55,714 bases of DNA from positions 1 to 55,714 of the IMG/VR virus record IMGVR_UViG_3300006169_000022. One strand, written 5' to 3'. Source of the DNA: a virus. Below are positions 15,996 to 52,295 of this stretch, piece after piece. Each line of letters begins with the position of its first letter. Positions within the stretch are counted from its first letter, which is position 1. The notes beneath the pieces are model-generated. The model was not told the DNA's origin. It made no database searches and saw only the letters and a list, made by a program, of their open reading frames with translations. The position numbers and the translations under genes were made by a program.

Positions 15996-16044
15996 TCGCG
16001 AGGCAAACACGCCTCATAGTGAGACCACTACGAAAGGAACCAGC
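15996..16044 (+). promoter_or_regulatory. Promoter/leader module, copy 0
   Basis: tcgcga-ggcaaacacgcctca-tagtgagaccactacgaaaggaaccagc-ATG; fixed 15-nt spacing between TCGCGA and TAGTGA. Confidence 0.6.
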
Positions 16045-16424: not shown

Positions 16425-16476
16425 TCGCGAGGAATACATGGCCTTTAATGAGACCCCGACTATCAAGGAGAAACCC
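16425..16476 (+). promoter_or_regulatory. Promoter/leader module, copy 1
   Basis: tcgcga-ggaatacatggcctt-taatgagaccccgactatcaaggagaaaccc-ATG. Confidence 0.6.
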
Positions 16477-16711: not shown

Positions 16712-16746
16712 AACCAAGAGCCCCTAACACGGGCTCACGGTTTTCG
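16712..16746 (+). terminator. Terminator hairpin (AACC..GAGCCC-loop-GGGCTC..GGTTTTCGCG family)
   Basis: gagccc/gggctc stem plus an outer aacc/ggtt pairing, then TTTT. Confidence 0.6.
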
Positions 16747-16792
16747 CGGGTGATACATGCCCCATAATGAGACCCCTACAAAAGGAGACATC
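16744..16792 (+). promoter_or_regulatory. Promoter/leader module, copy 2
   Basis: tcgcgg-gtgatacatgcccca-taatgagacccctacaaaaggagacatc-ATG. Confidence 0.6.
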
Positions 16793-17037: not shown

Positions 17038-17067
17038 ACCAAGAGTCCTACACGGACTTTTGGTTTT
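17038..17067 (+). terminator. Terminator hairpin (same family)
   Basis: accaagagtcc-tacac-ggacttttggt (11-bp stem including one G-U pair), then TTT. Confidence 0.65.
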
Positions 17068-17115
17068 CGCGAAGAATACACGGCCTTTAATGAGACCCTA
17101 CGAAAGGAAACGCCC
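17067..17115 (+). promoter_or_regulatory. Promoter/leader module, copy 3
   Basis: tcgcga-agaatacacggcctt-taatgagaccctacgaaaggaaacgccc-ATG. Confidence 0.6.
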
Positions 17116-17346: not shown

Positions 17347-17386
17347 AACCAAGACCACGACTAATACTCGTGGTCACGGTTTTCGC
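17347..17386 (+). terminator. Terminator hairpin, 40-nt unit duplicated exactly at 17660-17699
   Basis: aaccaa-gaccacga-ctaatac-tcgtggtc-acggttttcgc; 8-bp perfect stem plus an outer aacc/ggtt pairing. Confidence 0.7.
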
Positions 17387-17438
17387 GAATGGAACATTCC
17401 TCCTAATGAGACCCCAATCCAACTACCAAGGAGCAGCA
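17383..17438 (+). promoter_or_regulatory. Promoter/leader module, copy 4
   Basis: tcgcga-atggaacattcctcc-taatgagaccccaatccaactaccaaggagcagca-ATG. Confidence 0.55.
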
Positions 17439-18240: not shown

Positions 18241-18270
18241 TCGCAAGAAAAACATGCCCCCTAATGAGAG
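18241..18270 (+). promoter_or_regulatory. Promoter module, copy 5 (upstream half only; followed by a ~100-nt divergent leader)
   Basis: tcgcaa-gaaaaacatgccccc-taatgagag, then divergence; the same 15-nt spacing. Confidence 0.5.
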
Positions 18271-19352: not shown

Positions 19353-19403
19353 TCGCGAGAAAAACATGTCTCTTAATGAGACCACTACCCGAAAGGAAAC
19401 CTC
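19353..19403 (+). promoter_or_regulatory. Promoter/leader module, copy 6
   Basis: tcgcga-gaaaaacatgtctct-taatgagaccactacccgaaaggaaacctc-ATG. Confidence 0.6.
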
Positions 19404-20876: not shown

Positions 20877-20915
20877 GCAGTACACCATATTTGAGAACAA
20901 CAACCAAGGAGGTTC

Positions 20916-21523: not shown

Positions 21524-21524
21524 C

Positions 21525-21579
21525 TCGCAAGATTTACACGCCTCATAATGAGACCCCAACTACGAAAAGGAACACAATC
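21525..21579 (+). promoter_or_regulatory. Promoter/leader module, copy 7
   Basis: tcgcaa-gatttacacgcctca-taatgagaccccaactacgaaaaggaacacaatc-ATG. Confidence 0.6.
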
Positions 21580-22846: not shown

Positions 22847-22852
22847 GGAGTC

Positions 22853-23002: not shown

Positions 23003-23012
23003 AGGAGAAGCA

Positions 23013-33481: not shown

Positions 33482-33535
33482 TCGCAAGTTGTACATGCCC
33501 TTTAATGAGACCCCAACTACGAAAAGGAAACCACC
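33482..33535 (+). promoter_or_regulatory. Promoter/leader module, copy 8
   Basis: tcgcaa-gttgtacatgccctt-taatgagaccccaactacgaaaaggaaaccacc-ATG. Shares 27 identical nt from TAATGA onward with copy 7. Confidence 0.6.
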
Positions 33536-33805: not shown

Positions 33806-33812
33806 GACCTCC

Positions 33813-33847
33813 AACCGAGAGCCCCGTAACACGGGCTCAAGGTTTTC
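33813..33847 (+). terminator. Terminator hairpin (GAGCCC family)
   Basis: aaccgagagccccgtaacacgggctcaaggtttt. Confidence 0.6.
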
Positions 33848-33924
33848 TCGAAGGGGCCCTAGCGCTACTCGCGCAGTATCGCTCAGGTATAAAAGACAGC
33901 TTCCCCACCCTCTTGCGCCCTGAC

Positions 33925-33976
33925 TCGCAAGTCATACATGGCCTTTAGTGAGACCCCATCTATGAAAGGAACCACA
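33925..33976 (+). promoter_or_regulatory. Promoter/leader module, copy 9
   Basis: tcgcaa-gtcatacatggcctt-tagtgagaccccatctatgaaaggaaccaca-ATG. Confidence 0.6.
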
Positions 33977-34159
33977 ATGAAGACCATCGCCAAGAACACC
34001 CTTGCCAACGTGCTGTTCGTTGTCATCCTGCTTTGCCTCGCGGCGGGCCTGCTCCTCATCGGAGTGGAGCCCTTCGTGACCGCACTGCTGGTTGCCATCG
34101 CAGCCGTCGCCATCAAGTTCGACGACCACCGCATCCGTCGCGCCCGTCAGAAGATCTGA
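33977..34159 (+). CDS. Small two-TM membrane protein, 60 aa
   Basis: Start set by module copy 9. The track start (33938) is the non-conserved ATG inside the module. Confidence 0.6.
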   Translation: MKTIAKNTLANVLFVVILLCLAAGLLLIGVEPFVTALLVAIAAVAIKFDDHRIRRARQKI

Positions 34160-34163
34160 TCTC

Positions 34164-34199
34164 AAGCCTTGAGCCCCGTAACACGGGCTCACGGTTTTC
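34164..34199 (+). terminator. Terminator hairpin (GAGCCC family)
   Basis: aagccttgagccccgtaacacgggctcacggttttc. Confidence 0.6.
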
Positions 34200-34233
34200 T
34201 TCACCCAACCAATTGTTCCTGAAAGGACACGTC

Positions 34234-38210: not shown

Positions 38211-38340
38211 GCGAGACGAGATCTGGCTGTCCAACATGAGGAAGTTCCTCGAGGAAGCCGGACACACGCCTGAGTTCATCGAAAGGAAGATGGCTGAGTA
38301 TGAAGGCAACTCTGAAGCCGCATCAGAGGAAAGCGGTTGA
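38203..38340 (+). CDS. Small acidic protein, 45 aa
   Basis: Not in the track. The ATG overlaps the end of the upstream gene; the ORF overlaps the helicase start by 41 nt. Confidence 0.3.
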   Translation: MAERDEIWLSNMRKFLEEAGHTPEFIERKMAEYEGNSEAASEESG

Positions 38341-39682
38341 GGAGCTCGCTAACGGAAAGATTCTGCACGGAGGGACGGGAGTAGGCAAGGGCATCACCGC
38401 TCTTGCCTACTTCTACGAGAAAGTGTGCGGGGGTGACCTCGCGCATATTCCGAGCATGAAGAAGCCGAGAGACCTCTACATCCTCACAACCAAGAAGAAG
38501 CGCGACGAGAAGGACTGGGAGGCTGACGCTGTGAAGCTCGGCCTCGGCACCCACGACGACAGTCTGGACGGCATCAAGGTAACCGTCGACACGTGGAACA
38601 ACATCAAGAAGTACGCAGGAGTCAAGGATGCCTTCTTCATATTTGATGAACAACGAGTTGTGGGTAGTGGAGCCTGGAGCCGTACGTTCATCTCGCTTGC
38701 CAAGCATAACCAGTGGCTTCTCCTCAGTGCCACGCCGGGCGATACGTGGCTTGACTACATCCCGGTATTCGTTGCCAATGGTTGGTATAAGAATCGCACT
38801 GAATTCAAGCAGCGCCATGTTGTATATAACACTTTCAGTAAGTTCCCGAAAGTCGATCGATACATCGAAACTGGCACGCTTGTGCGTCACCGGAACAATG
38901 TACTCGTCCACATGCCGTACGAACGACACACCAAGCGGATCCTCCACACCCGCATCGTCCAGTACGACACCGAGCTCTTCGAGCTAGTAAAGGAGAAGAG
39001 ATGGCATCCGTACGAGGAGAGGCCGATTCGGGACGTAGCCGAGCTGTTCGCTGTGATGAGGAAGGTTGTCAATTCAGACGAGTCGAGGCTGGACTCTGTC
39101 CGGATGCTCATGCAGGAACACCCGAGACTGATTGTCTTCTACAACTTCAACTACGAGCTCGAGATGCTCAGGAAGCTCGGCTCTTCCTCGTCAAAGAGCG
39201 ATCCGTGGTCGGGGACGATATTCGAGCAGAACTACCCGTTCGAGAGTCCCGCATCAACGATCACGATGACCAAGGCGAAGTACGAGTTCGAAAAGGCGCA
39301 AAGAAGCTCGAGTGCTTCTGTGTCGGCGGGCCCCACGGCGGATACACCTGCGACAATTGTCGCTGAATGGAACGGGCATAAGCACGATCCTGTACCCGAT
39401 TCGGATCGCTGGGTCTACCTTGTGCAGTACACCGCGGGGTCTGAAGGGTGGAATTGCATAGATACGGACGCCACCTGCTTCTACAGCCTGACATATTCGT
39501 ACAAGCATTGGCACCAGGCGCATGGCCGAATCGACCGGATGAACACCCGGTTTACGGATCTGCACTACTACAAGCTGATGAGCAACTCCTTCATCGATCA
39601 GGCCGTTTGGAGGTCTTTGAAGGTCAAAAGGAGCTTCAACGAGTCCTCGCAGGGCCTCTGGGTGCCTGAAATGGCCGCTTAG
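38300..39682 (+). CDS. SF2 (SNF2/DEAD-like) DNA helicase, 460 aa
   Basis: LKPHQRKAVEEL...GGTGVGKGITAL (motifs Q/I), IFDEQR (motif II, DExx), LLLSATPG (motif III), and a C-terminal helicase domain ending QAHGRIDR (motif VI-like). Confidence 0.7.
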   Translation: MKATLKPHQRKAVEELANGKILHGGTGVGKGITALAYFYEKVCGGDLAHIPSMKKPRDLYILTTKKKRDEKDWEADAVKLGLGTHDDSLDGIKVTVDTWNNIKKYAGVKDAFFIFDEQRVVGSGAWSRTFISLAKHNQWLLLSATPGDTWLDYIPVFVANGWYKNRTEFKQRHVVYNTFSKFPKVDRYIETGTLVRHRNNVLVHMPYERHTKRILHTRIVQYDTELFELVKEKRWHPYEERPIRDVAELFAVMRKVVNSDESRLDSVRMLMQEHPRLIVFYNFNYELEMLRKLGSSSSKSDPWSGTIFEQNYPFESPASTITMTKAKYEFEKAQRSSSASVSAGPTADTPATIVAEWNGHKHDPVPDSDRWVYLVQYTAGSEGWNCIDTDATCFYSLTYSYKHWHQAHGRIDRMNTRFTDLHYYKLMSNSFIDQAVWRSLKVKRSFNESSQGLWVPEMAA

Positions 39683-39701
39683 AGGCCCTGTATGGGCTGT
39701 T

Positions 39702-39730
39702 TTGCCAAAACTGAAGCTCTAAACTACTTT
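39702..39730 (+). promoter_or_regulatory. Sigma-A/sigma70-like promoter candidate
   Basis: TTGCCA (39702-07), a 17-nt spacer, then TACTTT (39725-30), in the gap after the helicase gene. Confidence 0.35.
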
Positions 39731-39745
39731 CACGCGACCTAATTT

Positions 39746-39759
39746 AATACCATGGTATT
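39746..39759. promoter_or_regulatory. Perfect 14-bp palindrome (operator-like)
   Basis: AATACCATGGTATT, about 15 nt downstream of the candidate -10. The half-site AATACCAT recurs at 16410 and 35140. Confidence 0.4.
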
Positions 39760-39828
39760 TAGTTAGGTGTAGTAAGAGTAGTTTCCCCGCGAAATCTTGG
39801 CAAACCAAAAACCAACCCTCAGGAAGGG

Positions 39829-40344
39829 GTGAGAAAGACAGTGAGAGTCCAGTGGCATGAGCTCGAGGACTTCCCCGACTATGCCGTCAGTGACGAGGGC
39901 GATATTACCAACATCAAGACCGGTCTCCCTCGAAAGCTGTCCATCAACCAGCAGGGAGTTGCGAAGATCTCCCTGTACAACCGTCGAGGTCAGCTGATCA
40001 CACGTTCGGTTGCTCGACTGGTGGCAGAAGCGTTCGTACCCAGTCCAGACCCGGAGACATTCGACACACCTATCCACATGGATGGCGAGCAGCTCAACTG
40101 TCGTGCCGACAATCTGGTCTGGCGTCCCCGATGGTTCGCCATCAAGTTCCACAAACAGTTTCGCTACCCTGAGTTCCATATAGCTCGAGGTACGTTCATC
40201 GACATCGACAGTGAGGAGGTGTATGACAGCATCAAGGACATCTGCGTCCGCAACGGTCTGTACTGGCAAGACGTAGTGAAGTCCGTGACGGAGGAGACAT
40301 TCGTCTTCCCGACATGGCAGAATTTCCGACTCTTCGAGCAGTGA
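39829..40344 (+). CDS. HNH homing-endonuclease-like protein (NUMOD4 + HNH_3 type), ~171 aa (GTG 39829 or 39841)
   Basis: WHELEDFPDYAVSDEGDI (NUMOD4-like W..i..f..Y.VS..G) and RLVAEAF...HMDGEQLNCRADNLVW (HNH_3-like H..g...Nn...NL.W). Confidence 0.6.
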   Translation: MRKTVRVQWHELEDFPDYAVSDEGDITNIKTGLPRKLSINQQGVAKISLYNRRGQLITRSVARLVAEAFVPSPDPETFDTPIHMDGEQLNCRADNLVWRPRWFAIKFHKQFRYPEFHIARGTFIDIDSEEVYDSIKDICVRNGLYWQDVVKSVTEETFVFPTWQNFRLFEQ

Positions 40345-40387
40345 TGTGGTATTATCACGCGTCATATTCGCGCCTTATAATAGAAGG

Positions 40388-40423: not shown

Positions 40424-40440
40424 CGCGCGAGGAGGCCGTG

Positions 40441-40743
40441 ATGTTGGAATCGAGATACCAAGCATTGCTCATCAAGCGCCTTCGCGTCATGTTCCCGGGA
40501 TGCATCATCCTGAAGAACGACACTGACTACCTGCAGGGATTCCCTGATCTGACGATCCTGTGGCAACGCTACTGGGCCGTACTGGAAGTCAAACCAAGCG
40601 AGGACGCCCACTTCGAACCAAACCAAGAGTGGTACATCAGAACGCTGGACAACATGTCGTTCAGCGCCATGATCTGCCCCGAGAATGAAGAGGAAGTCCT
40701 GCATGACCTTGAACAGGCCTTTCGTTCTCAACACGCATCGTAA
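40441..40743 (+). CDS. VRR-NUC-type PD-(D/E)xK nuclease (resolvase-like), 100 aa
   Basis: ATG lies 5 nt after GAGGAGG (GTG 40438 also possible). GFPDLTILW...WAVLEVKPSE...NQEWYIRTL matches the G.PD...E.K...Q..w signature. Confidence 0.55.
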   Translation: MLESRYQALLIKRLRVMFPGCIILKNDTDYLQGFPDLTILWQRYWAVLEVKPSEDAHFEPNQEWYIRTLDNMSFSAMICPENEEEVLHDLEQAFRSQHAS

Positions 40744-41287
40744 CCTCGAGGGGTTGCATGCGCGTTTGAGTCCGAGCCAACACGCATGGGTGAATTACGA
40801 CGAGGACAAGTTCCTTCGAGTGCTCACTTCGCAAGAAGCTGCCGCCAAGGGAGATCGTCTCCATGAGCTGGCCATGCGTCTGATCCGAGACGGCGTCAAG
40901 CTGCCTCGGACACCCAAGACGCTCAACATGTACGTGAACGATGCCATCGGCTATCGGATGACCCCCGAGCAGACTCTGTTCTACTCGCCCGAGTTCTTCG
41001 GAACCGCCGACGCGCTGAAGTTCACCCCATCCAAGAGGCACCTTCGAGTCCACGACCTGAAGACCGGTGTCACGCCGGCCAAAGTCACACAGCTCGAGTG
41101 CTACTGCGCGCTCTTCTGTCTGGAGTACGGCTTCTCGCCGTTTGATCTGGACATGGAGGCCCGCATCTACCAATCCGACGAGGTGGCGGTCTTTGAGGTT
41201 GACCCCGACGTGGTGTTCCGCATCATGGAGAAGGCCAAGTTCTTTGATCTGCTGATCCGCCAGCGCAGGGAGGAAGCACTGTCTTGA
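40703..41287 (+). CDS. PD-(D/E)xK (RecB/Cas4-like) exonuclease, 194 aa
   Basis: ATG lies 6 nt after GAGGAAG. LSPSQHAW near the N-terminus, VHDLKTG (D-x-K) and QLECYCALF (Q...Y) motifs. Confidence 0.45.
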   Translation: MTLNRPFVLNTHRNLEGLHARLSPSQHAWVNYDEDKFLRVLTSQEAAAKGDRLHELAMRLIRDGVKLPRTPKTLNMYVNDAIGYRMTPEQTLFYSPEFFGTADALKFTPSKRHLRVHDLKTGVTPAKVTQLECYCALFCLEYGFSPFDLDMEARIYQSDEVAVFEVDPDVVFRIMEKAKFFDLLIRQRREEALS

Positions 41288-44037
41288 GTCCTATTCTCAA
41301 CGAAGACGACTACCTGGCACACTACGGCGTCCTCCGTCGTTCTGGACGGTTCCCGTGGGGGTCAGGCGGAAAGTGGGGTAGCGCCGGCACTGTCGACGCT
41401 GCTCAGCGAAGCAAGTCCTTCATGGACCAGGTGGCTCTGCTCCGGCAGGAGGGTATGTCTGATCCCGATATCGCTCGGGGTTTCGGGATGACTACCAAGG
41501 AGCTTCGAGAGACCAACACCATCGCAGTCAACGCCAAGCGTGCGGCTGACGTTGGTCAAGCAGTCAAGCTGAAAGAGAAGGGATATTCCAACGTCGCCAT
41601 CGGCGAGCGGATGGGTATCAACGAGTCCTCTGTGAGGTCTCTTCTCAATCGGCATCTGCAGGACAAGCAGGACATTCTGACCGAGACCGCCAACATCCTT
41701 CGGGATCAGGTGGATACCGGATCCTTCATCGACATCGGAAAGGGTGTCGCTACCACGCGCGGAATCTCGAACGAGAAGCTCAACTCTGCCGTGGCGCTGC
41801 TCAAGGATGAGGGATATTCAGTCCAGAAGGTCCAGGTGCAGCAGCAGGGCACCTCAGCGGGGAACAAGACCACGATCAAGGTCCTCTGTCCTCCTGGTAC
41901 GACCTACCGTGATGTCAAGATGAACATGGACAACATTCGCCAGATCGAACAGAAGACGAATGATGGAGGTCGGACTTTCTTCGGCATCCTACCGCCCAAG
42001 TCCATTGATGGCTCGCGCATTCAGGTCCGCTACGTCGAAGACGGCGGTGCGGAAGCGGATGGTGTCATGTACATCCGTCCTGGAGTCGAGGATCTCTCTT
42101 TGGGAGGCTCTCGATACGCGCAGGTCCGAATCATGGTGTCGGATTCGCACTACGCCAAAGGCATGGCTGTCTACCGGGATGATCTTCCGGATGGCGTGGA
42201 CATGGTTGTCAACAGCAACAAGAAGCGCGGCACTCCGATGCTTGGAGACAAGGACAACTCTGTCCTGAAGCCGTTGCAGACCGATGCAGATGGAAACATC
42301 GACAAGGACAACCCCTTCGGAGCCCAGATTGCCAGTCAGATCGGCAAGACGGATGCAACCGGTCGTGTGGTGGAGCTCACCTCCGCTGTAAATATCCTGA
42401 ACAAGGAAGGCGACTGGGAAGGCTGGAAGAAGAGCATTGCCTCACAGGTTCTGTCAAAGCAGAGCCCCAAGCTTGCTGAAGCTCAACTGAAGCAGGCCTA
42501 TGACAGGAAGCGTGAAGAGCTGGATGAGATCCTCGCTCTGAACAATCCTGCTGTGAAGGCGAAGCTGCTGGCCTCGTACTCTGAGGGTGCGGATTCTGCT
42601 GCGGTTCACCTCAAGGCTGCGGCCCTGCCAAGGCAGGCGTCACATGCCATCCTTCCGGTCAAGTCTCTGAAGGATACGGAAGTCTACGCCCCCAACTACA
42701 ACGACGGGGAACGTGTGGCTCTCATCCGCTATCCACATGGCGGAACCTTCGAGATCCCGGAACTCACGGTCAACAACCGTAACCGTGAGGCAACGGCCAT
42801 GATTGGCAAGCAGGCAAGGGACGCAATCGGCATCAACCACAAGGTCGCTGAGCGGCTGTCTGGTGCTGACTTCGATGGGGACTCTGTTCTCGTCATCCCG
42901 AACAATCGGGGCGCGCTCAAGTCCACGCCTGCACTGGAGGGTCTGAAAACGTTCGATGCTAAGGCTGAGTACCCGGCGTATGAGGGCATGCCCCGTATGA
43001 CGCCTCGTGCAAAGCAGCAGCAGATGGGGTTGGTCTCTAACCTCATTACGGACATGACCATTCAGAAGGCCAGCACTGATGAGCTGGCCCGTGCTGTTCG
43101 CCATTCGATGGTGGTCATCGATGCAGAGAAGCACAACCTGGATTACCGTCGTTCCGCTAGGGACAATGGGATCCTGGCTCTGCAGAAGAAGTACCAGCCT
43201 CGAGATGATGGCCGTGCTGGTGGTGCTGCGACCCTGATCTCTAGGGCTACGTCACGCACAGAAGTCCGGGCTAGGAAGCCTAGGTCCATGGCTAAGGGTG
43301 GTCCTATTGACCCTGCCACAGGAAGGCGAGTCTACGAGAAGACTGGAGAGTCTTGGGTAGACCCCAACACAGGTAAGACTGTCTACAAGACCCAGCGTTC
43401 TGTGAAGCTTCGGGAGACCGATGATGCACACACTCTGGTGTCTAAGGATGGTGGCACTCTGATTGAAAGGGTCTATGCCGATCATTCGAACAGGATGAAG
43501 GCTCTGGCTAACGAGGCACGTAAGGCCTATGTCGCACAGCCTTCGGTTCAGAGGTCACCCTCTGCAGCCAAGGCATACGAGGCACAGGTCAAGTCACTTG
43601 ATGCAAAGCTTAGCAATGCATTGAGGAACAGTCCTCGTGAACGTCAGGCCCAGGTCTTTGCCGATACTGTGGTGTCAGCCAAGAGGGATGCCAATCCCAA
43701 CATGGACAACACTCAGATCAAGAGAGCACAAGCACAAGCATTGGCTGAAGCACGTGCTCGCTTTGGTGCAAAGAAGGAACTGGTGGACATCACACCAGAT
43801 GAGTGGAATGCAATCCAGGGTGGAGCTATCAGTAACCACAAGCTCAAGCAGATCCTGGACAACACCGACATCGACAAGGTGAAGGCGTTGGCTACACCAC
43901 GTACACCAAGGCTCATGAGTGGTGGCAACCTGGCACGGGCCAAGCAGATGCAGGCACAGGGCAAGACACAGGCAGAGATCGCTGCTGCCCTTGGCATCAG
44001 TGTTACTACAGTGAAGGAGGGGTTGAACAGTGGATGA
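41284..44037 (+). CDS. Single-subunit two-barrel RNA polymerase candidate (YonO/QDE-1-like) with HTH segments, 917 aa, TTG start
   Basis: Beta-like SHYAKGMAVYRDDLPDGVDMVVNSN (aa 288-). Beta-prime-like RYPHGG (aa 482-) ... INHKVAERLSGADFDGDSVLVIP (ADFDGD at nt 42865-82). HTH-like GYSNVAIGERMGINESSVRSLLNR and GKTQAEIAAALGISVTTVKEGL. GGGAGG lies 10 nt before the TTG. Confidence 0.65.
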   Translation: MSPILNEDDYLAHYGVLRRSGRFPWGSGGKWGSAGTVDAAQRSKSFMDQVALLRQEGMSDPDIARGFGMTTKELRETNTIAVNAKRAADVGQAVKLKEKGYSNVAIGERMGINESSVRSLLNRHLQDKQDILTETANILRDQVDTGSFIDIGKGVATTRGISNEKLNSAVALLKDEGYSVQKVQVQQQGTSAGNKTTIKVLCPPGTTYRDVKMNMDNIRQIEQKTNDGGRTFFGILPPKSIDGSRIQVRYVEDGGAEADGVMYIRPGVEDLSLGGSRYAQVRIMVSDSHYAKGMAVYRDDLPDGVDMVVNSNKKRGTPMLGDKDNSVLKPLQTDADGNIDKDNPFGAQIASQIGKTDATGRVVELTSAVNILNKEGDWEGWKKSIASQVLSKQSPKLAEAQLKQAYDRKREELDEILALNNPAVKAKLLASYSEGADSAAVHLKAAALPRQASHAILPVKSLKDTEVYAPNYNDGERVALIRYPHGGTFEIPELTVNNRNREATAMIGKQARDAIGINHKVAERLSGADFDGDSVLVIPNNRGALKSTPALEGLKTFDAKAEYPAYEGMPRMTPRAKQQQMGLVSNLITDMTIQKASTDELARAVRHSMVVIDAEKHNLDYRRSARDNGILALQKKYQPRDDGRAGGAATLISRATSRTEVRARKPRSMAKGGPIDPATGRRVYEKTGESWVDPNTGKTVYKTQRSVKLRETDDAHTLVSKDGGTLIERVYADHSNRMKALANEARKAYVAQPSVQRSPSAAKAYEAQVKSLDAKLSNALRNSPRERQAQVFADTVVSAKRDANPNMDNTQIKRAQAQALAEARARFGAKKELVDITPDEWNAIQGGAISNHKLKQILDNTDIDKVKALATPRTPRLMSGGNLARAKQMQAQGKTQAEIAAALGISVTTVKEGLNSG

Positions 44038-44275
44038 GTACATGCTGTCCACATCGGACAACCCTTACTCACCCGTGACACAGTACCAAGAGTGGAAGGT
44101 GTGGGATCAACAGCATGGCTATCACACCGAAGCTTACCTTGCAAGAGTTACAACAACGAGTGATGAGCTGAGCGACGCCGACCAGGCGGCCGCGGTAGAT
44201 TCAGCAATGAACGACATCATCGAAGCTCATGCAGGTGGTCTGTATGTCAAGGTGAAAGTCCCGAGCTCCGGCTGA
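44030..44275 (+). CDS. Hypothetical protein, 81 aa, GTG start
   Basis: GTG lies 9 nt after AAGGAGG. Confidence 0.55.
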   Translation: MDEYMLSTSDNPYSPVTQYQEWKVWDQQHGYHTEAYLARVTTTSDELSDADQAAAVDSAMNDIIEAHAGGLYVKVKVPSSG

Positions 44276-44288
44276 TTTTCAAATGGGG

Positions 44289-44320
44289 AGGGGGGTGCCG
44301 CAAATGGTACCCCCCTTCTT
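44289..44320 (+). terminator. Terminator-like hairpin
   Basis: aggggggtgcc-gcaaat-ggtaccccccT (about 11-bp stem), followed by tcttcat (weak T-tract). Confidence 0.5.
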
Positions 44321-44328
44321 CATCGCCG

Positions 44329-44365
44329 CTCTCCTAAAAATTTCCCCGGAGGGATTTTTGGAGAG
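44329..44365 (+). other. Second long hairpin in the 160-nt gap before 44437
   Basis: ctctcc-t-aaaaa-tttccccggaggga-ttttt-ggagag. Confidence 0.4.
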
Positions 44366-44436
44366 ACTAAAGCGGTTTGAACCCGCTGGGAACTGCATCG
44401 AAAGTCCCGTAAAGGGCACGACAAGAAGGAGAAACC

Positions 44437-45288: not shown

Positions 45289-45642
45289 ATGGCGTCCACG
45301 CGCAAGAACCCGGGCAACGACCCGGCGAACCGTAAGCCGCGTCGGCCGCCTGCCACGACTCCCGAAGCGCGCGAGAACCAACTCATCAACAAGGCGCTCA
45401 ATGAGATTGAGCGTCAAATCGATGCCGGCGAAGCGTCGGCCCAAATTCTGTCGCACTACGCGAAGCTTGGGTCGACGCGGGAACGGCTCGAACAGGAGCG
45501 CCTCCTTCGCGAGGTCGACCTTCTTGAGCGCAAGGCTCAGGCTATGGACTCGGCTAAGCGGATCGAGGAGCTCTACGACGAGGCCATCGCAGCGATGCGT
45601 TCCTATGGTGGCGACGCTCCGGAGCACCGTCATGATGACTAG
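45289..45642 (+). CDS. Basic N-terminus + coiled-coil protein, small-terminase-like (tentative), 117 aa
   Basis: AAAGGAG RBS. The ...ENQLINKALNEIERQIDAGEASAQILSHYAKLGSTRERLEQERL block recalls small-terminase-type proteins (memory only). Confidence 0.4.
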   Translation: MASTRKNPGNDPANRKPRRPPATTPEARENQLINKALNEIERQIDAGEASAQILSHYAKLGSTRERLEQERLLREVDLLERKAQAMDSAKRIEELYDEAIAAMRSYGGDAPEHRHDD

Positions 45643-46042
45643 GTGTTATTCAGAGCTTCGCCACCTGGGGACGCTCCAGGAGAGGTATGACTACCTCAAG
45701 CTTCGGGGCCAGGTAGGCGATCCGACCTTTGGTCACGACCGCTGGCTGAATCAGGATTTTTACGCCTCCAGAGAGTGGCGACGCATTCGACACTTCGTGA
45801 TCGCTCGAGACAACGGGTGTGATCTAGGGGTCGATGGCTACGAGATCTACGACCGGATCTATATCCACCACATGAACCCAATCACGGTCGAGGACATCCA
45901 GCATGGAGACGAGGACATCATCAACCCTGAGTTCCTCATTTCCTGCACCCATTCAACCCACAATGCCATTCACTATGGCGATGAGAGGCAACTTCCCCGG
46001 CAGCTCATCGAACGTAGGCCTGGCGACACCAGACTCTGGTGA
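45632..46042 (+). CDS. HNH endonuclease, 136 aa
   Basis: YASREWRRIRHFVIARDNGCDLG...IYIHHMNPIT...CTHSTHNAIH (the classic phage HNH pattern: W...R..v..RD.g.C...HH..P....H..iH). Confidence 0.65.
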   Translation: MMTRCYSELRHLGTLQERYDYLKLRGQVGDPTFGHDRWLNQDFYASREWRRIRHFVIARDNGCDLGVDGYEIYDRIYIHHMNPITVEDIQHGDEDIINPEFLISCTHSTHNAIHYGDERQLPRQLIERRPGDTRLW

Positions 46043-49506: not shown

Positions 49507-49977
49507 ATGGGAACTGAAACTGAGAACCAGCCATGGCAGGAGCAGGTTGACACCGCTCTCGCCCACTACGGGGTGAAGGGCATGCGCTGGGGCTTTCGGA
49601 AGTCTGAGCATGAGGGAGGAACCACCGCCAAGCGGGCCAAGGTTCCCGACTCGATCTCCCCGGACAAGCAGGCGGCGAATGCCGCGGCAGCTCGGATCAC
49701 TCAAAAGGGTGACACTTCGGCCCTGTCCAACAAGGAGCTCCAGCAGGTCGTCCAGCGGATGAACTTGGAGCAGCAGTACTCCCGACTGGCCGACAGCCCC
49801 GGGAAACTCAAGTCCGGCAGCAAGAAGGCCAAGGAGATCGTCGACGCCGTCAACACCGGCAAGACGGTCTACAGCATGACGCCCACCCCTGTCAAGACCA
49901 AGATCGGGAAGGCCCTTCGCGGGGCCCTCATCTCGACGGCGGTTCTGGCGGGCAAGGCGTACTACCGCAACAAGTAA
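49507..49977 (+). CDS. HYGVKGMRWG-motif protein 1 (paralog of 51762..52295), 156 aa
   Basis: GAAAGGAGG RBS. N-terminal ALAHYGVKGMRWG, a Lys-rich middle and a hydrophobic C-terminal helix. It sits where a small terminase would be expected, but I recognise no DNA-binding motif. Confidence 0.6.
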   Translation: MGTETENQPWQEQVDTALAHYGVKGMRWGFRKSEHEGGTTAKRAKVPDSISPDKQAANAAAARITQKGDTSALSNKELQQVVQRMNLEQQYSRLADSPGKLKSGSKKAKEIVDAVNTGKTVYSMTPTPVKTKIGKALRGALISTAVLAGKAYYRNK

Positions 49978-49995: not shown

Positions 49996-51765
49996 ATGGC
50001 TACCATCGTTGTCGACGGACACACTCTGTCCAACGACACGGTTCCGATCTACTACGGTCAGTTCCGTGATGCAGTAGTCCGTGGCGACATTCCGGTGAAC
50101 CGGGAGATCGCGGCGGAGATGAACCGCATCGACGCACTCATCGCCAACCCGAACATCTGGTACGACGCGGGCGCAATCGAGGGCTTCATCCGGTTCTGCG
50201 AGAAAGAGTGCACGCTCACCGACGGCAGTGATCTCCACATGCTGCCGATCTTCAAGGTGTGGGCTGAGCAGATCTTCAGCTGGTTCTACTTCGTCGAGAG
50301 ACAGGTCTACGAGCCAGGAGAGGACAACCATGGGGGCCGCTACGTCAACAAGACGGTCAAGAAGCGGCTGACCAACAAGCAATACCTGATCGTGGCCCGA
50401 GGTGCCGCCAAGTCGATGTATGTCTCTCTCATCCAGAACTACTTCCTCAACATCGACACCTCGACCACTCACCAGATCACGACTGCCCCTACCATGAAGC
50501 AGGCAGACGAGGTCATGTCCCCAATCCGGACCGCCATCACGCGGGCCAGGGGACCACTCTTCAAGTTCCTTACCGAGGGTTCGCTCCAGAACACCACTGG
50601 ATCTCGAGCCCTCCGGCAGAAGCTGGTGGCCACCAAGAAGGGCATCGAGAACTTCCTCACTGGATCGTTGCTCGAAGTCCGACCGATGACCATCAACAAG
50701 CTTCAGTCGCTGCGCACCAAGATCAACTCCGTCGATGAGTGGCTGTCGGGTGACATCCGAGAGGACGTCATCGGTGCTATCGAGCAGGGAGCGTCGAAGG
50801 TTGACGACTACCTGATCATCGCTGTCAGCTCCGAGGGAACGGTCCGAGCCGGTGCCGGCGACACAATCAAAATGGAACTGCATTCGATCCTCAAGGGCGA
50901 GTACAACGCGCCGCACATCTCGATCTGGCACTACAAGCTGGACGACTTGGAGGAGGTTGCGGATCCTGCCATGTGGCTGAAGGCGAACCCGAACTTGGGT
51001 AAGACTGTCAGTTACGAGACCTACCACTTGGACGTGGAACGAGCCGAGAAAGCACCTGCTTCCCGGAACGACATCCTCGCCAAGAGGTTTGGCATCCCCA
51101 TGGAGGGCTACACCTACTTCTTCACCTACGAAGAGACTGTGCCTCACCGTCCTCAGAAGTACTGGCAGATGCCCTGCTCCATGGGCGTGGACTTGTCGAT
51201 GGGTGACGACTTCTGTGCGTTCACTTTCCTCTTCCCTCTTGGGCGGGGGCGCTTCGGAATCAAGACCCGGAGCTATATTTCTTCGCTGACGCTGATGAAG
51301 CTCCCCGGGGCTATGCGTCAGAAGTACGACGAGTTCATCGCCGAAGGCAGCCTTCACGTTCTCGAGGGAACCATCCTCGACATGATGGAGGTGTACGACG
51401 ACCTCGATGCCTATATTCAGCAAGAAGAGTACGAGGTCAGTGCTGTGGGCTACGACCCCTACAACGCCAAGGAGTTCATCGAGAGATGGACAACTGAGAA
51501 CGGTGAATGGGGTGTCATGAAGGTCATCCAGGGGGCGAGGACTGAGTCTGTTCCTCTCGGCGAGCTGAAGAAGCTTTCCGAAGAGCGCATGCTCATATTC
51601 GACCAGATCCTGATGTCCTTCACCATGGGCCATGCCATCACGATCGAAGACACAAACGGCAACCGCAAGCTCTACAAGAAGCGCCAGGAAGAGAAGATCG
51701 ACAACGTCGCTGCTCTCATGGATGCTTTCGTCGCGTACAAGGCCAACAAGGAGGCTTTCGAATGA
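49996..51765 (+). CDS. Terminase large subunit, 589 aa
   Basis: ATG lies 6 nt after GAGGAGGG. YLIVARGAAKS (Walker A-like) and SVDEWLSG (Walker B-like). Nuclease half with GVDLSMGDDFCAF and DNVAALMDAF, Terminase_1-like organisation. Confidence 0.8.
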   Translation: MATIVVDGHTLSNDTVPIYYGQFRDAVVRGDIPVNREIAAEMNRIDALIANPNIWYDAGAIEGFIRFCEKECTLTDGSDLHMLPIFKVWAEQIFSWFYFVERQVYEPGEDNHGGRYVNKTVKKRLTNKQYLIVARGAAKSMYVSLIQNYFLNIDTSTTHQITTAPTMKQADEVMSPIRTAITRARGPLFKFLTEGSLQNTTGSRALRQKLVATKKGIENFLTGSLLEVRPMTINKLQSLRTKINSVDEWLSGDIREDVIGAIEQGASKVDDYLIIAVSSEGTVRAGAGDTIKMELHSILKGEYNAPHISIWHYKLDDLEEVADPAMWLKANPNLGKTVSYETYHLDVERAEKAPASRNDILAKRFGIPMEGYTYFFTYEETVPHRPQKYWQMPCSMGVDLSMGDDFCAFTFLFPLGRGRFGIKTRSYISSLTLMKLPGAMRQKYDEFIAEGSLHVLEGTILDMMEVYDDLDAYIQQEEYEVSAVGYDPYNAKEFIERWTTENGEWGVMKVIQGARTESVPLGELKKLSEERMLIFDQILMSFTMGHAITIEDTNGNRKLYKKRQEEKIDNVAALMDAFVAYKANKEAFE

Positions 51766-52295
51766 CACAGGAAAACTTCTCGACTCCCCAAGAGGCTCTG
51801 GCGCACTACGGCGTCAAGGGCATGCGCTGGGGTGTGACGACCAAGTCTGATTCCGGAGGGAAGTCCTCCAGCATCGGCAAGAACCCCGTTCGTGCGGCCT
51901 ACAAGTCGCAGAAGCAGGAGGGCAAGCGTCTCGACGAGAACGCAGCCAACAAGTCCGTTGGCCAGGCTCGCAAGGAGGTCCGTGAGGTCGGCAAGACCGC
52001 TCGGAGCATCATCAGTGAGTCGAAGCGTGCGCAGACCGAGGCCGGCCGTCAGGCTGCCGCCAAGCGCTACCAGAAGGAGGTCCTGAACACGATCAAGTCA
52101 GACGAGTTCAAGTCCACCTACCGCAAGGCCAGCACCATGGGCAAGGGCGAGATGGCAGCTCACGCCGTTGCTTTCGGGCCTCTCGCTCTGGTCACCATCC
52201 CCGCCGTCCGGTCCGGCTACAAGAAGATGTCCGAAGCCGGCTACGAGCTCGAGGTCGACATGGCCCACGACATTCTGCGTGAGATGCGCTCCTAG
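51762..52295 (+). CDS. HYGVKGMRWG-motif protein 2, 177 aa
   Basis: ATGA overlap with the terminase gene. N-terminal ALAHYGVKGMRWG, a Lys-rich middle and a hydrophobic C-terminal helix. Confidence 0.6.
   Translation: MTQENFSTPQEALAHYGVKGMRWGVTTKSDSGGKSSSIGKNPVRAAYKSQKQEGKRLDENAANKSVGQARKEVREVGKTARSIISESKRAQTEAGRQAAAKRYQKEVLNTIKSDEFKSTYRKASTMGKGEMAAHAVAFGPLALVTIPAVRSGYKKMSEAGYELEVDMAHDILREMRS

What the first reader, a model, noticed from the sequence alone, without database searches (positions are those of the whole stretch)
41284..44037. Single-chain two-barrel RNA polymerase candidate (YonO/QDE-1-like) carrying its own HTH modules
Seen: the 917-aa ORF reads ...S-H289-YAKGMAVYRDDLPDGVDMVVNSN... 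About 190 aa later it reads R482-YPHGGTFEIPELTV...IGINHKVAERLSG-ADFDGD-SVLVIP, with ADFDGD at nt 42865-42882. HTH-looking segments lie near both ends (MSDPDIARGFGMTTKELRE, GYSNVAIGERMGINESSVRSLLNR, GKTQAEIAAALGISVTTVKEGL). Established: in bacterial RNAP the beta-subunit barrel carries RHGNKG...DMP...VDIVLNP. The beta-prime barrel carries RAPTLH...IQLHPLV...NADFDGD, the catalytic Mg loop. Both barrels occur in a single chain in SPbeta YonO, in the virion RNAP gp66 of a crAss-like phage and in QDE-1-type RdRPs. Inference: this is a phage-encoded non-canonical RNAP whose own HTH modules might substitute for sigma. It is the obvious candidate reader of the ten non-sigma70-like promoter modules in this genome. 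The sequence alone does not show whether it is DNA- or RNA-templated, or whether it acts early or late.
Basis: partly seen in the sequence, partly recalled or inferred. Interest (0 to 1): 0.88.

Follow-up and report, generated by a model that had tools for sequence, protein, structure and literature searches.

The report
Phage single-chain two-barrel RNA polymerase
This 917-residue phage gene very probably encodes a single-chain RNA polymerase of the cellular "two-barrel" type flanked by DNA-binding helix-turn-helix modules; the family was already predicted in the literature but has never been tested, and here it travels with a conserved 32-bp promoter-like motif that it may read.

Summary
ORF 41284-44037 (+, 917 aa) carries every quoted motif at the stated coordinates. 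In 152 diverse homologues K292, R482, P484 and D529/D531/D533 are invariant; H289 is not (82%). AlphaFold models hit QDE-1, the Thermus-phage non-virion RNAP (P74-26 gp62), RDR2, AR9 and crAss RNAPs, beta-prime subunits and classic double-psi barrels. The YonO PHROG matches the DFDGD barrel.

It is not new as a prediction. PHROG 4291 matches full length, and Koert et al. 2021 described this HTH-flanked putative RNAP as the signature gene of an actinophage/Lactococcus phage supercluster. I found no experiment.

The ten modules are real (10 against 0.05 expected). They recur, with the same spacing, in Gordonia, Streptomyces, Arthrobacter and Lactococcus relatives. Family-wide they contain TATAAT, but none of the ten here keeps TAnnnT. 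The window's one canonical host-type promoter lies just upstream of the RNAP operon.

Best model (about 50%): host RNAP makes the enzyme, which then transcribes the non-structural half from the modules. Main rival (about 30%): the host reads the modules and the enzyme drives late genes, as YonO does.

By-products: portal-fused relatives of the core, and an N-terminal peptide shared with two packaging-module proteins.

The parts
41284..44037 (+). Gene for the 917-aa single-chain two-barrel RNA polymerase candidate (phrog_4291 family)
   Evidence: ORF; PHROG full-length E=0; Foldseek; invariant residues
41305..41370 (+). N-terminal conserved, predicted-disordered peptide DDYLAHYGVLRRSGRFPWGSGG (aa 8-29), related to the DUF7211 N-terminal motif
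   Evidence: pLDDT below 50 for aa 1-37; H13, G15, S20, G21, R22, P24, G26, S27, G28 invariant in A1; LAHYGV...WG shared with ORFs 49507 and 51762
41422..41661 (+). N-terminal pair of helix-turn-helix modules (aa 47-126)
   Evidence: Pfam HTH_23, E 6.7e-11, two stretches; weak HTH_68 at aa 49-69; NCBIfam Cbp1-like at aa 47-140
42016..42408 (+). First (beta-subunit-type) double-psi beta-barrel, aa about 245-375, with invariant D259, R282, K292-G293, P302, D306, K329
   Evidence: Beta-rich, pLDDT above 90; conservation; DPBB hits
42631..42903 (+). Second (beta-prime-type) double-psi beta-barrel, aa about 450-540, with R482-Y-P484-H485 and the metal loop
   Evidence: phrog_8308 (YonO family) match at aa 458-541, E 6.9e-6; Pfam RdRP at aa 520-618, E 0.003
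42865..42882 (+). ADFDGD catalytic Mg2+ loop (A528-D533)
   Evidence: Translation; D529, D531, D533 are 152/152
43930..44025 (+). C-terminal helix-turn-helix of sigma-70 region 4 / LuxR / resolvase type (aa 883-914)
   Evidence: Pfam Sigma70_r4_2 at 36.8 bits (cut-off 25.7), HTH_28, HTH_7, GerE
40347..40381 (+). Best host-type (sigma-70/sigma-A) promoter candidate in the genome. TTATCA-18-TATAAT overlaps an extended -10 TGGTATTAT, in the 93-nt gap upstream of the RNAP operon
   Evidence: 10/12 match, the top site in 33-50 kb; the only intergenic + strand TANAAT and TGnTAnnnT in the whole window; related TAT(A/G)ATAGAAGG or module-variant elements at the same place in relatives
40438..40743 (+). 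VRR-Nuc-like endonuclease gene, first gene of the RNAP operon
   Evidence: phrog_93; syntenic VRR-Nuc in HotFries, Hankly and Avazak
40685..41287 (+). Cas4/RecB-family exonuclease gene; its stop overlaps the RNAP start
   Evidence: phrog_3953, E 4.6e-65; synteny
44030..44275 (+). Small conserved gene (phrog_4303) that always follows the RNAP gene; last gene before the genome end
   Evidence: synteny
44283..44365 (+). Conserved genome-end (cos) region. It has a stable hairpin at 44283-44323, a predicted end junction at 44332|44333 and a second A-tract/hairpin/T-tract element at 44329-44365
   Evidence: Match to the physical ends of four relatives, including Lactococcus P092; hairpin dG -29.8 kcal/mol, z -4.3
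15996..16025 (+). Promoter-like module 1 (TCGCR-N6-ACAY-NN-C-NNN-TARTGAGAC)
16425..16454 (+). Module 2
16744..16773 (+). Module 3, directly after a terminator-like hairpin plus TTTT
17067..17096 (+). Module 4
17383..17412 (+). Module 5
18241..18270 (+). Module 6, the weakest copy: GAGAGG instead of GAGACC and no RBS after it
19353..19382 (+). Module 7
21525..21554 (+). Module 8, heading the unit that runs into the primase/polymerase gene
33482..33511 (+). Module 9
33925..33954 (+). Module 10, the last module upstream of the helicase and RNAP region
49507..49977 (+). Small protein just upstream of the large terminase gene, with N-terminal DUF7211 motif DTALAHYGVKGMRWG related to the RNAP N-terminus
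51762..52295 (+). Small protein between the large terminase and portal genes, with N-terminal DUF7211 motif QEALAHYGVKGMRWG

Best explanation
The gene encodes a catalytically competent, single-chain two-barrel nucleotidyl-transferase: an RNA polymerase of the QDE-1 / YonO / Thermus-phage gp64 kind. I put this at about 0.9.

It most likely works as a DNA-dependent, sigma-independent transcriptase of the phage (about 0.75). The catalytic core (aa about 245-640) has a beta-type barrel with D259 and K292. It also has a beta-prime-type barrel with R482-x-P484 and the D529/D531/D533 Mg2+ triad. The core is flanked by an N-terminal pair of HTH modules and a C-terminal sigma-region-4-like HTH. These would give it promoter specificity of its own.

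Proposed programme (inferred, about 0.5):
1. Host RNA polymerase starts at the only canonical sigma-A-type promoter of the genome (40347-40381). It expresses the VRR-Nuc / exonuclease / RNAP operon at the right end of the linear genome.
2. The phage enzyme then initiates at the ten about 32-bp modules (TCGCR-N6-ACAY-N6-TARTGAGACC). These head every transcription unit of the non-structural half of the genome (15996 to about 44275).
3. The structural half has no module. It is transcribed by another route that I could not identify.

Shown: fold, invariant catalytic residues, HTH domains, the modules and their conservation, synteny. Inferred: DNA template, promoter specificity, timing.
For: Fold. 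Full-length and core AlphaFold2 models (pLDDT 77 and 79) retrieve QDE-1 (E 2.5e-7, TMq 0.41-0.45), P74-26 gp62 (3.6e-6), RDR2, AR9 nvRNAP, crAss gp66, Rpb1/beta-prime and classic DPBB proteins. BFVD hits are annotated RNA-dependent RNA polymerase.

Sequence. phrog_4291 E=0; phrog_8308 (the YonO family) E 6.9e-6 on aa 458-541; Pfam RdRP E 0.003.

Catalytic residues. K292, R482, P484, D529, D531, D533 are 152/152 and D259 is 149/152. They map by pattern and spacing onto seven of the eight residues universal to two-barrel RNAPs (PMC2919709).

DNA binding. Three HTH modules pass Pfam cut-offs. No other HTH or sigma protein was found among about 40 non-structural ORFs scanned.

Modules. There are exactly ten, all on the + strand. 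Their PWM scores are 39-58 bits and the next-best site scores -2. The count is 10 against 0.05 expected. They lack a -35 element, and 0/10 have TAnnnT at -12..-7. The sigma-70 scan does not flag them. The same architecture and spacing recur in Gordonia, Streptomyces, Arthrobacter and (ACAY-N6-TAATGA) Lactococcus relatives whose RNAPs are 40-55% identical. A 46-nt module query hits 189 of 50,697 phage records. By genus counts these are a subset of the 250 RNAP-bearing records.

Private host promoter. The only intergenic TANAAT and TGnTAnnnT of the genome lie just upstream of the RNAP operon.

Precedent. P23-45 gp64-type nvRNAP and the virion RNAPs read conserved phage-specific motifs that co-occur with the enzyme (10.1101/2022.12.01.518664).
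Against: There is no experiment for any family member in the literature I could search.

Across 209 unique module instances from IMG/VR, the unconstrained -12 and -11 positions are T (88%) and A (84%). The ancestral module therefore contains a perfect TATAAT, which is what host sigma-A reads.

The co-occurrence of module and RNAP is confounded by common descent. The supercluster has no RNAP-less members: the full-length primase/polymerase is in 252 records and the RNAP in 250.

The only characterised bacterial-phage relative with in vivo data, YonO, transcribes a single late operon, not early genes (PMC5467207).

The eighth universal residue (the second basic residue of the beta barrel) could not be placed; position 298 is not conserved.

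TM-scores are modest (up to 0.45).

I found no promoter for the structural half, so the programme is incomplete.
Confidence: 0.5

Rival explanations
1. YonO-like late polymerase. Host sigma-A RNA polymerase reads the ten modules, which would be strong early and middle promoters with a TATAAT-type -10. This transcribes the whole non-structural half, ending with the RNAP gene. The phage RNAP then transcribes the module-free structural and lysis half (44437, through the wrap-around, to 15980) from a promoter near the left genome end.
For: Family-wide the modules carry TATAAT (76% TAnnnT), perfect in Gordonia, Arthrobacter and Lactococcus relatives. The modules sit where phage early promoters usually sit, in front of small genes just after the tail genes. 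The RNAP gene is the second-last gene of the rightward array, next to the genome end. On a circularised or concatemeric genome the late genes follow immediately. YonO transcribes the SPbeta late operon from one promoter.
Against: In this phage 0/10 modules keep both T-12 and A-11, and only 3/10 keep A-11. By established knowledge, A-11 is the base most critical for sigma-70-family -10 recognition. No -35 element lies at 16-18 nt in any host lineage, including Lactococcus. Instead ACAY at -20..-17, TCGCR at -31..-27 and GAGACC at -6..-1 are conserved. I found no conserved candidate late promoter in 44333-44436 or in the left ends of relatives. In Arthrobacter phage Hankly the start of the late block carries a host-type extended -10, TGCTATAAT.
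Confidence: 0.3
2. Replication helper. The enzyme makes primers or activates the origin by transcription, like T7 RNAP or host RNAP at some origins, rather than serving general gene expression.
For: The gene lies in the replication and recombination module (helicase, HNH, VRR-Nuc, Cas4-type exonuclease). It is just downstream of an intergenic region that is AT-rich, iteron-rich and palindromic in relatives and looks like an origin. QDE-1 can use ssDNA templates (PMC9508822, abstract seen).
Against: The phage already encodes a 1261-aa primase/polymerase fusion (phrog_4210, E=0). Three sequence-specific-looking HTH modules and ten dispersed promoter-like modules fit transcription better. Portal-fused relatives point to a role immediately after DNA entry.
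Confidence: 0.07
3. True RNA-dependent RNA polymerase, as annotated in PHROGs and GenBank, making dsRNA or amplifying a phage or host RNA.
For: The nearest solved structures and the only Pfam hit are eukaryotic RdRPs (QDE-1, RDR2, PF05183). The PHROG and GenBank label is 'RNA-dependent RNA polymerase'.
Against: The label is inherited from the Pfam family name, not from a test. The Pfam hit is below the gathering score (16.7 against 23.8 bits). All characterised phage members of the superfamily (YonO, gp64/gp62, gp96, crAss gp66, AR9) are DNA-dependent. QDE-1 itself is also DNA-dependent. The protein carries dsDNA-type HTH modules.
Confidence: 0.03
4. A DNA-binding regulator that has lost catalysis. 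This is the common SEA-PHAGES annotation, 'helix-turn-helix DNA binding protein'.
For: Most GenBank relatives are annotated this way. The HTH domains are the only parts that pass curated Pfam thresholds.
Against: All catalytic residues are invariant in 152 members that are otherwise only about 32% identical per column. Such conservation is not expected for a dead enzyme.
Confidence: 0.02

Closest known systems
HTH-flanked 'putative RNA polymerase' of the actinophage supercluster and the Lactococcus/Faecalibacterium phage group (phrog_4291; Koert et al. 2021, bioRxiv 10.1101/842583)
   Same: Full-length homology (E=0; 40-55% identity to 250 GenBank phages). HTH at both ends and DxDGD. Same synteny: VRR-Nuc, Cas4 exonuclease, RNAP, small gene, genome end.
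   Different: At most 55% identical to any deposited phage (no megablast hit); 88% to metagenomic proteins. Its promoter-like modules have lost the TA of TATAAT. The published work did not report the promoter motif, the private host-type promoter, the portal-fused relatives or the DUF7211-like N-terminus.
P23-45 gp64 / P74-26 gp62 non-virion RNAP (PDB 8f5m; Nat Commun 2024, PMC10770324)
   Same: Single-chain two-barrel phage RNAP and the best solved phage match to the core (E 3.6e-6, TMq 0.40). It reads a conserved phage-specific promoter motif without sigma and transcribes early and middle genes.
   Different: No detectable sequence similarity. gp64 is about 590 aa without HTH modules. In P23-45 its gene is expressed by a tape-measure-fused virion RNAP. 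Here a host-type promoter precedes the gene.
YonO of Bacillus prophage SPbeta (phrog_8308; PMC5467207)
   Same: Single-chain two-barrel enzyme of a siphovirus. Its family profile matches the DFDGD barrel (E 6.9e-6). It is proven to be DNA-dependent.
   Different: No full-length homology: hhalign of the family profile against YonO finds nothing. YonO has no HTH modules and drives one late operon.
QDE-1 / RDR2 eukaryotic RNA-silencing polymerases (Pfam PF05183)
   Same: Best structural matches (E 2.5e-7 to 1e-3, probability 1.0). Same order of the two barrels in one chain. The RxP-to-DxDGD spacing is similar (47 against 45 residues).
   Different: 10-14% identity, and the Pfam score is below gathering. 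Those enzymes make dsRNA for silencing and lack HTH modules.
Virion RNAPs fused to or packaged with structural proteins (crAss phi14:2 gp66, P23-45 gp96 tape-measure fusion, N4 vRNAP)
   Same: Weak fold match to gp66 (E 0.02). Relatives of this core are fused to the portal protein or encoded right after it (P0130, P0122).
   Different: The window's gene lies in the replication module, not in the structural module, and is not fused to a structural protein. Virion presence is untested.
T7 RNA polymerase system (functional analogue only)
   Same: Many near-identical long promoters, each followed by an RBS and a gene. The polymerase gene has host-type promoter(s). This is my recollection of textbook T7 biology.
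   Different: Unrelated fold: a single-subunit right-hand polymerase.

Membership tests
Two-barrel (double-psi beta-barrel) RNA polymerase superfamily | Two DPBB domains forming one active site | tested here: met
   Core model pLDDT 78.8. Foldseek top hits are QDE-1, gp62, RDR2, AR9, crAss gp66 and beta-prime. Single barrels hit p97-N, kiwellin and aspartate decarboxylase DPBBs (full length). This rests on a predicted structure, not a solved one.
Two-barrel (double-psi beta-barrel) RNA polymerase superfamily | DxDGD metal-binding triad in the beta-prime-type barrel, preceded by R-x-P | tested here: met
   D529, D531, D533, R482 and P484 are 152/152. They correspond to QDE-1 D1007/D1009/D1011 and R962/P964.
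Two-barrel (double-psi beta-barrel) RNA polymerase superfamily | Acidic residue plus two basic residues in the beta-type barrel (QDE-1 D709, R738, K743) | tested here: inconclusive
   D259 (149/152) and K292 (152/152) fit by spacing. The second basic residue is ambiguous: R282 and K329 are at least 97% conserved, and position 298 is not conserved. No residue-level structural superposition was available.
Two-barrel (double-psi beta-barrel) RNA polymerase superfamily | Template-dependent NTP polymerisation | not testable with these tools
   Needs biochemistry.
phrog_4291 / supercluster HTH-RNAP | Full-length profile match and conserved gene neighbourhood at the right genome end | tested here: met
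   E=0, aa 6-915 against profile 7-906/909. Synteny with four relatives and conserved cos ends.
YonO family (phrog_8308) | Homology over the whole YonO chain | tested here: not met
   Only an 84-residue local match. hhalign of the 53-sequence profile against YonO gives probability 0.7%.
Eukaryotic-type RdRP (Pfam PF05183) | Score at or above the Pfam gathering threshold | tested here: not met
   16.7 bits against a cut-off of 23.8. One relative, P0113, carries a precomputed PF05183 hit. Koert et al. report HHpred 95.7% with an alignment.
Eukaryotic-type RdRP (Pfam PF05183) | RNA-templated synthesis | not testable with these tools
   Needs biochemistry.
Sigma-70 family | Regions 2 and 4 present (a full sigma factor) | tested here: not met
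   Only a region-4-type HTH is present (Sigma70_r4_2 at 36.8 bits, aa 891-911). TIGR02937 scores 23.5 against a cut-off of 42.9. The C-terminal module is a generic three-helix HTH that also matches GerE, HTH_7 and HTH_28.
Virion-packaged phage RNAPs | Encoded in the structural module or fused to a structural protein, and present in virions | tested here: not met
   The gene lies in the replication module. Relatives P0130 and P0122 do meet the first criterion. Virion proteomics could not be checked; the ReqiPepy6 paper is not held.

The most novel reading that the evidence does not exclude
The enzyme is a fully self-sufficient, sigma-less two-barrel RNA polymerase. Its three built-in HTH modules read a tripartite promoter of about 32 bp (TCGCR / ACAY / TAATGAGACC) that has been conserved, spacing included, from Lactococcus phages to actinophages. 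In addition, its DUF7211-like N-terminal peptide (LAHYGV...WG) is shared with two small proteins that flank the large terminase gene. This peptide would dock the enzyme to the packaging or portal machinery, so that it is carried in the capsid and injected, as its portal-fused relatives evidently are. It would then be a virion RNAP of an ordinary-looking 55-kb siphovirus.
Probability: 0.15. Interest if true: 0.8.

Novelty: new member of a known kind. Interest (0 to 1): 0.5.

Why it matters
If the prediction holds, about 250 sequenced phages of Arthrobacter, Gordonia, Streptomyces, Rhodococcus, Microbacterium, Curtobacterium, Lactococcus and Faecalibacterium encode a minimal cellular-type RNA polymerase with promoter recognition built into the same chain. 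So do more than a thousand metagenomic protein clusters.

Most of these genes are still annotated as 'HTH DNA-binding protein' or, misleadingly, 'RNA-dependent RNA polymerase'.

The work here turns that into a directly testable system. It gives a defined candidate promoter with ten copies in this genome and hundreds in relatives. It gives a candidate host-dependent promoter for the polymerase gene. It names cultivable relatives in SEA-PHAGES collections.

Such an enzyme would be useful as an orthogonal transcription tool for Actinobacteria. It would also serve as a simple model for how two-barrel polymerases find promoters without sigma. The portal-fused versions of the same core add a second example, after the P23-45 tape-measure fusion, of a two-barrel RNAP attached to a virion structural protein.

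Tried and rejected
- Megablast of the gene against 50,697 phage records: no match, so only protein-level relatives exist there.
- phmmer against PDB sequences: only a designed HTH repeat protein, nothing for the core.
- hhalign of the family profile against the single YonO sequence: nothing. The link to YonO rests on the PHROG profile only.
- A search for natural RNAP-less relatives, to run the P23-45-style 'motif present only with the enzyme' test: none exist. The full-length primase/polymerase is in 252 records and the RNAP in 250, so co-occurrence is uninformative about function.
- Sigma-70 consensus scan of AT-rich Lactococcus phage P092: 94 sites against 101 expected, useless.
- Check for loss of an HTH in P092, which lacks the TCGCR box: all three HTHs are retained, so no domain-to-box correlation emerged.
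- Search for a conserved late promoter at the left genome ends: only cos-associated hairpins are conserved.
- N-terminal peptide alone against PHROGs: only its own family. The relation to DUF7211 came from a regex over the window.
- The portal-fusion contigs L127 and L128 contain no modules, but they cover only head genes.
- Full-text search for the module sequences: no relevant paper.
- The Rhodococcus ReqiPepy6 paper, which may contain virion proteomics, is not held.
- No tRNA and no Rfam family in the window.
- I considered the modules to be operators or 'stoperators' of a repressor. I rejected this as the main reading: they are all co-oriented with the genes, sit at a fixed short distance upstream of the RBS and start codon, often follow terminators, and no repressor or integrase was found.

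Full report
**1. The observation**

The ORF is exactly as described. It runs 41284-44037 on the + strand and encodes 917 aa. It starts at a TTG that overlaps the stop of the upstream exonuclease gene, behind a GGGAGGAAG ribosome-binding site. An identical 917-aa product is on record as a JGI gene call on a contig of the window's own length (P0001). ADFDGD is encoded at 42865-42882.

The three HTH-looking stretches are backed by Pfam:
- HTH_23, E 6.7e-11, best stretch aa 90-126.
- A weak HTH_68 at aa 49-69.
- Sigma70_r4_2, HTH_28, HTH_7 and GerE at aa 883-911, all above their curated cut-offs.

The window is a circular assembly of a complete phage genome of about 55.6 kb, because bases 1-87 repeat at 55628-55714. 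All genes lie on one strand.

**2. What the protein is**

Three independent lines place it in the two-barrel RNA polymerase superfamily.

(a) Profiles.
- PHROG 4291, annotated 'RNA-dependent RNA polymerase', matches aa 6-915 with E=0.
- Pfam RdRP (PF05183) gives a sub-threshold hit at aa 520-618 (E 0.003).
- phrog_8308 matches aa 458-541 at E 6.9e-6. I showed this to be the YonO family by scanning YonO itself: E=0, full length.

(b) Structure. The full-length AlphaFold2 model has mean pLDDT 77. It retrieves QDE-1 (E 1.2e-5) and RDR2 (7e-4), followed by about 40 Rpb1 or beta-prime chains. A core-only model (aa 230-640; pLDDT 78.8, pTM 0.68) gives the following:

| Match | E-value |
|---|---|
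| QDE-1 (TMq 0.41-0.45) | 2.5e-7 |
| P74-26 gp62, the P23-45 gp64-type non-virion RNAP | 3.6e-6 |
| RDR2 | 4e-4 |
| AR9 nvRNAP | 6e-3 |
| crAss phi14:2 gp66 | 2e-2 |

Below these come textbook double-psi beta-barrel proteins (p97 N domain, kiwellin, aspartate decarboxylase) for the single barrels.

(c) Conservation. I aligned 152 members drawn from clusters at 50% identity. The family counts 1188 such clusters at E<=1e-3. K292, G293, P302, R482, P484, S526-G-A-D529, D531, G532 and D533 are invariant, and D259 is 149/152. By pattern and spacing these are seven of the eight residues that Ruprich-Robert and Thuriaux list as universal to two-barrel RNAPs: QDE-1 D709, R738, K743, R962, P964, D1007, D1009, D1011. 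The eighth, the second basic residue of the first barrel, I could not place. H289 is conserved in only 82% of members, and position 298 is mostly Ser.

**3. It is a known prediction, not a discovery**

Koert et al. (bioRxiv 10.1101/842583, 2021) describe this very protein family. They report HTH domains at both ends, an HHpred hit to PF05183 and the DxDGD loop. They call it a 'signature genetic element' of an actinophage supercluster plus a Lactococcus/Faecalibacterium phage group. The related phage 1706 protein was counted among 'YonO-like' proteins in 2010.

tblastn finds the gene in 250 phage records: Arthrobacter 95, Gordonia 55, Streptomyces 54, Lactococcus 13 and others. Identity is 40-55%. 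The gene is always at the right genome end and is mostly annotated 'HTH DNA-binding protein'. Papers from 2024 and 2026 still merely repeat the PHROG label, one of them taking it for an RNA-virus-type enzyme.

I found no biochemical or transcriptomic test of any member.

The family is not YonO proper: a 53-sequence profile against YonO gives nothing.

**4. Context**

The gene order is helicase (38300-39682), an HNH gene, VRR-Nuc-like endonuclease (40438-40743), Cas4-type exonuclease (40685-41287), RNAP, and a small phrog_4303 gene (44030-44275). The same order occurs in Streptomyces phage HotFries, Arthrobacter phage Hankly and Gordonia phage Avazak, where the physical genome end follows directly.

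The ends of those genomes, and of Lactococcus P092, align with window 44283-44365:

...GGTACCCCCCTTCTTCATCGCCGCTCT | CCTAAAAATTTCCCCGGAGGGATTTTT

So the cos junction of this phage is predicted at 44332|44333. It is preceded by a very stable hairpin (dG -29.8 kcal/mol, z -4.3). The RNAP gene is therefore the second-last gene at the right end of the linear genome. The lysis, terminase, portal, head and tail genes begin after the left end.

**5. The ten modules**

They are real. The pattern TCGCR-N6-ACAY-NN-C-NNN-TARTGAGAC occurs ten times, all on the + strand, against 0.05 expected. A weight matrix separates them cleanly, at 39-58 bits with the next-best site at -2.

Eight lie at 15996-21554 and two at 33482 and 33925. 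Each sits 10-25 nt before an RBS and start codon. Several sit directly after a terminator-like hairpin whose T-run overlaps the TCGC box. They head all transcription units of the non-structural half. The structural half has none.

New here: the module is conserved in distant relatives with identical spacing.
- Avazak has twelve copies, of the form TCGCR-N6-ACAY-GTCC-TATAATGAGACCCCTAYGAAAGGA.
- HotFries has six clear copies plus two weaker variants.
- Hankly has about nine, of the form TCGCGT-AAATT-ACAY-N6-TAATGA.
- Lactococcus P092 has about ten, of the form TTTT-ACAT-ACCCTA-TAATGA.

A 46-nt module query hits 189 of 50,697 phage records. The genus counts are a subset of the RNAP-positive set: Gordonia 55/55, Streptomyces 54/54, Rhodococcus 4/4, 'Siphovirus' 12/12, Arthrobacter 61/95. 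IMG/VR holds at least 119 further stretches.

This co-occurrence does not prove a functional link. The supercluster has no RNAP-less members: the full-length primase/polymerase is in 252 records.

**6. Who reads the modules?**

For the host:
- Among 209 unique IMG/VR instances, the positions I left free at -12 and -11 are T (88%) and A (84%). The ancestral module therefore contains TATAAT.

Against the host:
- No lineage has a -35 element at 16-18 nt.
- Instead ACAY (-20..-17), TCGCR (-31..-27) and GAGACC (-6..-1) are conserved across host phyla.
- In this phage none of the ten copies has TAnnnT, and only 3/10 keep A-11. That A-11 is the key base for sigma-70-family -10 recognition is established knowledge, not a result obtained here.
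- The consensus scan does not flag the modules as sigma-70-type.

In contrast, the only intergenic + strand TANAAT (TATAAT at 40376) and the only TGnTAnnnT (at 40347) of the whole genome lie in the 93-nt gap just upstream of the VRR-Nuc/exonuclease/RNAP operon. This gives the best sigma-70-like site of the region, TTATCA-18-TATAAT. Relatives carry a related TAT(A/G)ATAGAAGG or module-variant element at the same place.

No other HTH or sigma protein turned up among about 40 non-structural ORFs.

The structurally closest phage enzyme, the gp64/gp62 type, reads a conserved phage-specific motif without sigma and serves early and middle genes.

I therefore favour a two-step programme, at about 0.5. 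The host polymerase makes the enzyme from its private promoter, and the enzyme then fires the ten modules. The main rival, at about 0.3, is the YonO pattern: the host reads the modules and the enzyme drives the module-free late half. I could not find a conserved late promoter.

**7. By-products that bear on the mechanism**

(a) Portal-linked relatives. Two 50%-identity clusters carry the same core, 55% identical to window aa 131-873, without either HTH region.
- P0130 (1789 aa) is a portal protein (PF04860, E 3e-29) joined by an Ala/Lys/Pro-rich linker of about 600 aa to the RNAP core. Its gene lies between a terminase-like gene and the S78 protease and capsid genes.
- P0122 is a separate ORF immediately after the portal gene.

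A head-delivered version of this polymerase core therefore exists. It parallels the tape-measure fusion of P23-45. The polyvalent-protein survey mentions only N4/T7-type RNAP modules.

(b) A shared N-terminal peptide. The invariant, predicted-disordered N-terminus of the window protein is DDYLAHYGVLRRSGRFPWGSGG. It shares LAHYGV...WG with the N-termini of two small proteins that flank the large terminase gene, ORFs 49507-49977 and 51762-52295. Both are Pfam DUF7211 (E 2.5e-11 and 1.4e-10). One PHROG with this motif is labelled 'virion structural protein'. This raises the untested possibility that the stand-alone enzyme is also packaged. That would remove the need for a host-made first round.

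**8. Verdict**

The finding is correct in substance and well supported as a two-barrel RNA polymerase with built-in HTH modules. It is a new, divergent member of a family already predicted in the literature, and the family remains experimentally untouched. Template type, timing and promoter assignment are still inferences. The conserved module, the private host-type promoter and the portal-fused relatives make them directly testable.

Noticed in passing
L127 1866-7235 (P0130) and L128 229-5658 (P0122): Relatives of the RNAP core lack both HTH regions. One is fused to a portal protein (PF04860) through a low-complexity linker of about 600 aa. The other is encoded as a giant ORF right after the portal gene, in front of the S78 protease and capsid genes, on high-GC (0.69-0.71) Logan contigs. 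This looks like a head-delivered two-barrel RNAP. I found no report of it.
   Followed up: partly
window 41305-41370, 49540-49600, 51785-51850: The RNAP N-terminus shares the peptide LAHYGV...WG with the N-termini of two small proteins that flank the large terminase gene (Pfam DUF7211, function unknown). HotFries gp5 has it too. It may be a common docking peptide for the packaging or portal machinery.
   Followed up: partly
window 44283-44365: The cos / genome-end sequence is conserved from actinophages to Lactococcus P092 (...CTGCATCGCC... | CC-A-tract-CCCCGGGGG-T-tract). The predicted junction is 44332|44333. It is flanked by a very stable hairpin and an A-tract/hairpin/T-tract element.
   Followed up: yes
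window 1-87 and 55628-55714: An exact 87-bp terminal direct repeat of the contig. The window is a circularly closed assembly of a genome of about 55,627 bp, permuted relative to the physical ends.
   Followed up: yes
window 39683-39828; L004 45125-45390; L001 38710-39090; L002 44810-45175: The intergenic region between the helicase gene and the HNH/VRR-Nuc genes has palindromes and iteron-like repeats. In the window it reads TTTAATACCATGGTATT. Avazak has TTAATACACGG repeats, relatives have AAAAAGTTTTT-type blocks, and P092 has CCCGGA(A/T)TTTT repeats. It looks like an origin of replication.
   Followed up: no
window 16700-16745, 17024-17070, 17340-17386, 17653-17699, 33806-33848, 34158-34200: A family of repeated terminator-like hairpins (for example GAGCCCCGTAACACGGGCTC followed by GGTTTTC). 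Several are fused head-to-tail to a module, giving compact terminator-promoter-RBS-gene cassettes. The copy at 17653-17699 has the hairpin but no module after it.
   Followed up: partly
window 18241-18270: Module 6 is aberrant. It has GAGAGG instead of GAGACC, no RBS or start codon at the usual distance, and the lowest score (38.9 bits).
   Followed up: no
window 15996-16040: The proximal part of module 1 (CTCATAGTGAGACCAC) resembles the start region of the T7 phi10 promoter (CACTATAGGGAGACCAC, quoted from memory). This is probably coincidence, but it hints that initiation might occur at the G of GAGACC.
   Followed up: no
window 39829-40344 and 45401-46042: Two HNH endonuclease genes. The first sits between the helicase gene and the RNAP operon, at a spot where relatives also carry an HNH gene. 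The second is the phrog_4321 type near the lysis genes.
   Followed up: no
window 18493-19281 and 22767-23894: Two paralogous genes of the same unknown family (phrog_2152, E 1e-75 and 3e-73) in the module-driven region.
   Followed up: no
window 5202-5354, 10501-11068, 54766-54852: In-frame tandem repeats in structural genes: a 30-nt period in the 843-aa tail protein, a 171-180-nt period in the 1468-aa tape-measure gene, and Pro-Glu repeats near 54.8 kb.
   Followed up: no
L002 20002-20040 and 20390-20430 (Lactococcus phage P092): Two P092 modules are followed after about 9 nt by a tRNA-like 5' end (GACTTTAGCTCAGAGGTAGAGCG). This constrains the transcription start to the 9 nt after TATAAT.
   Followed up: no
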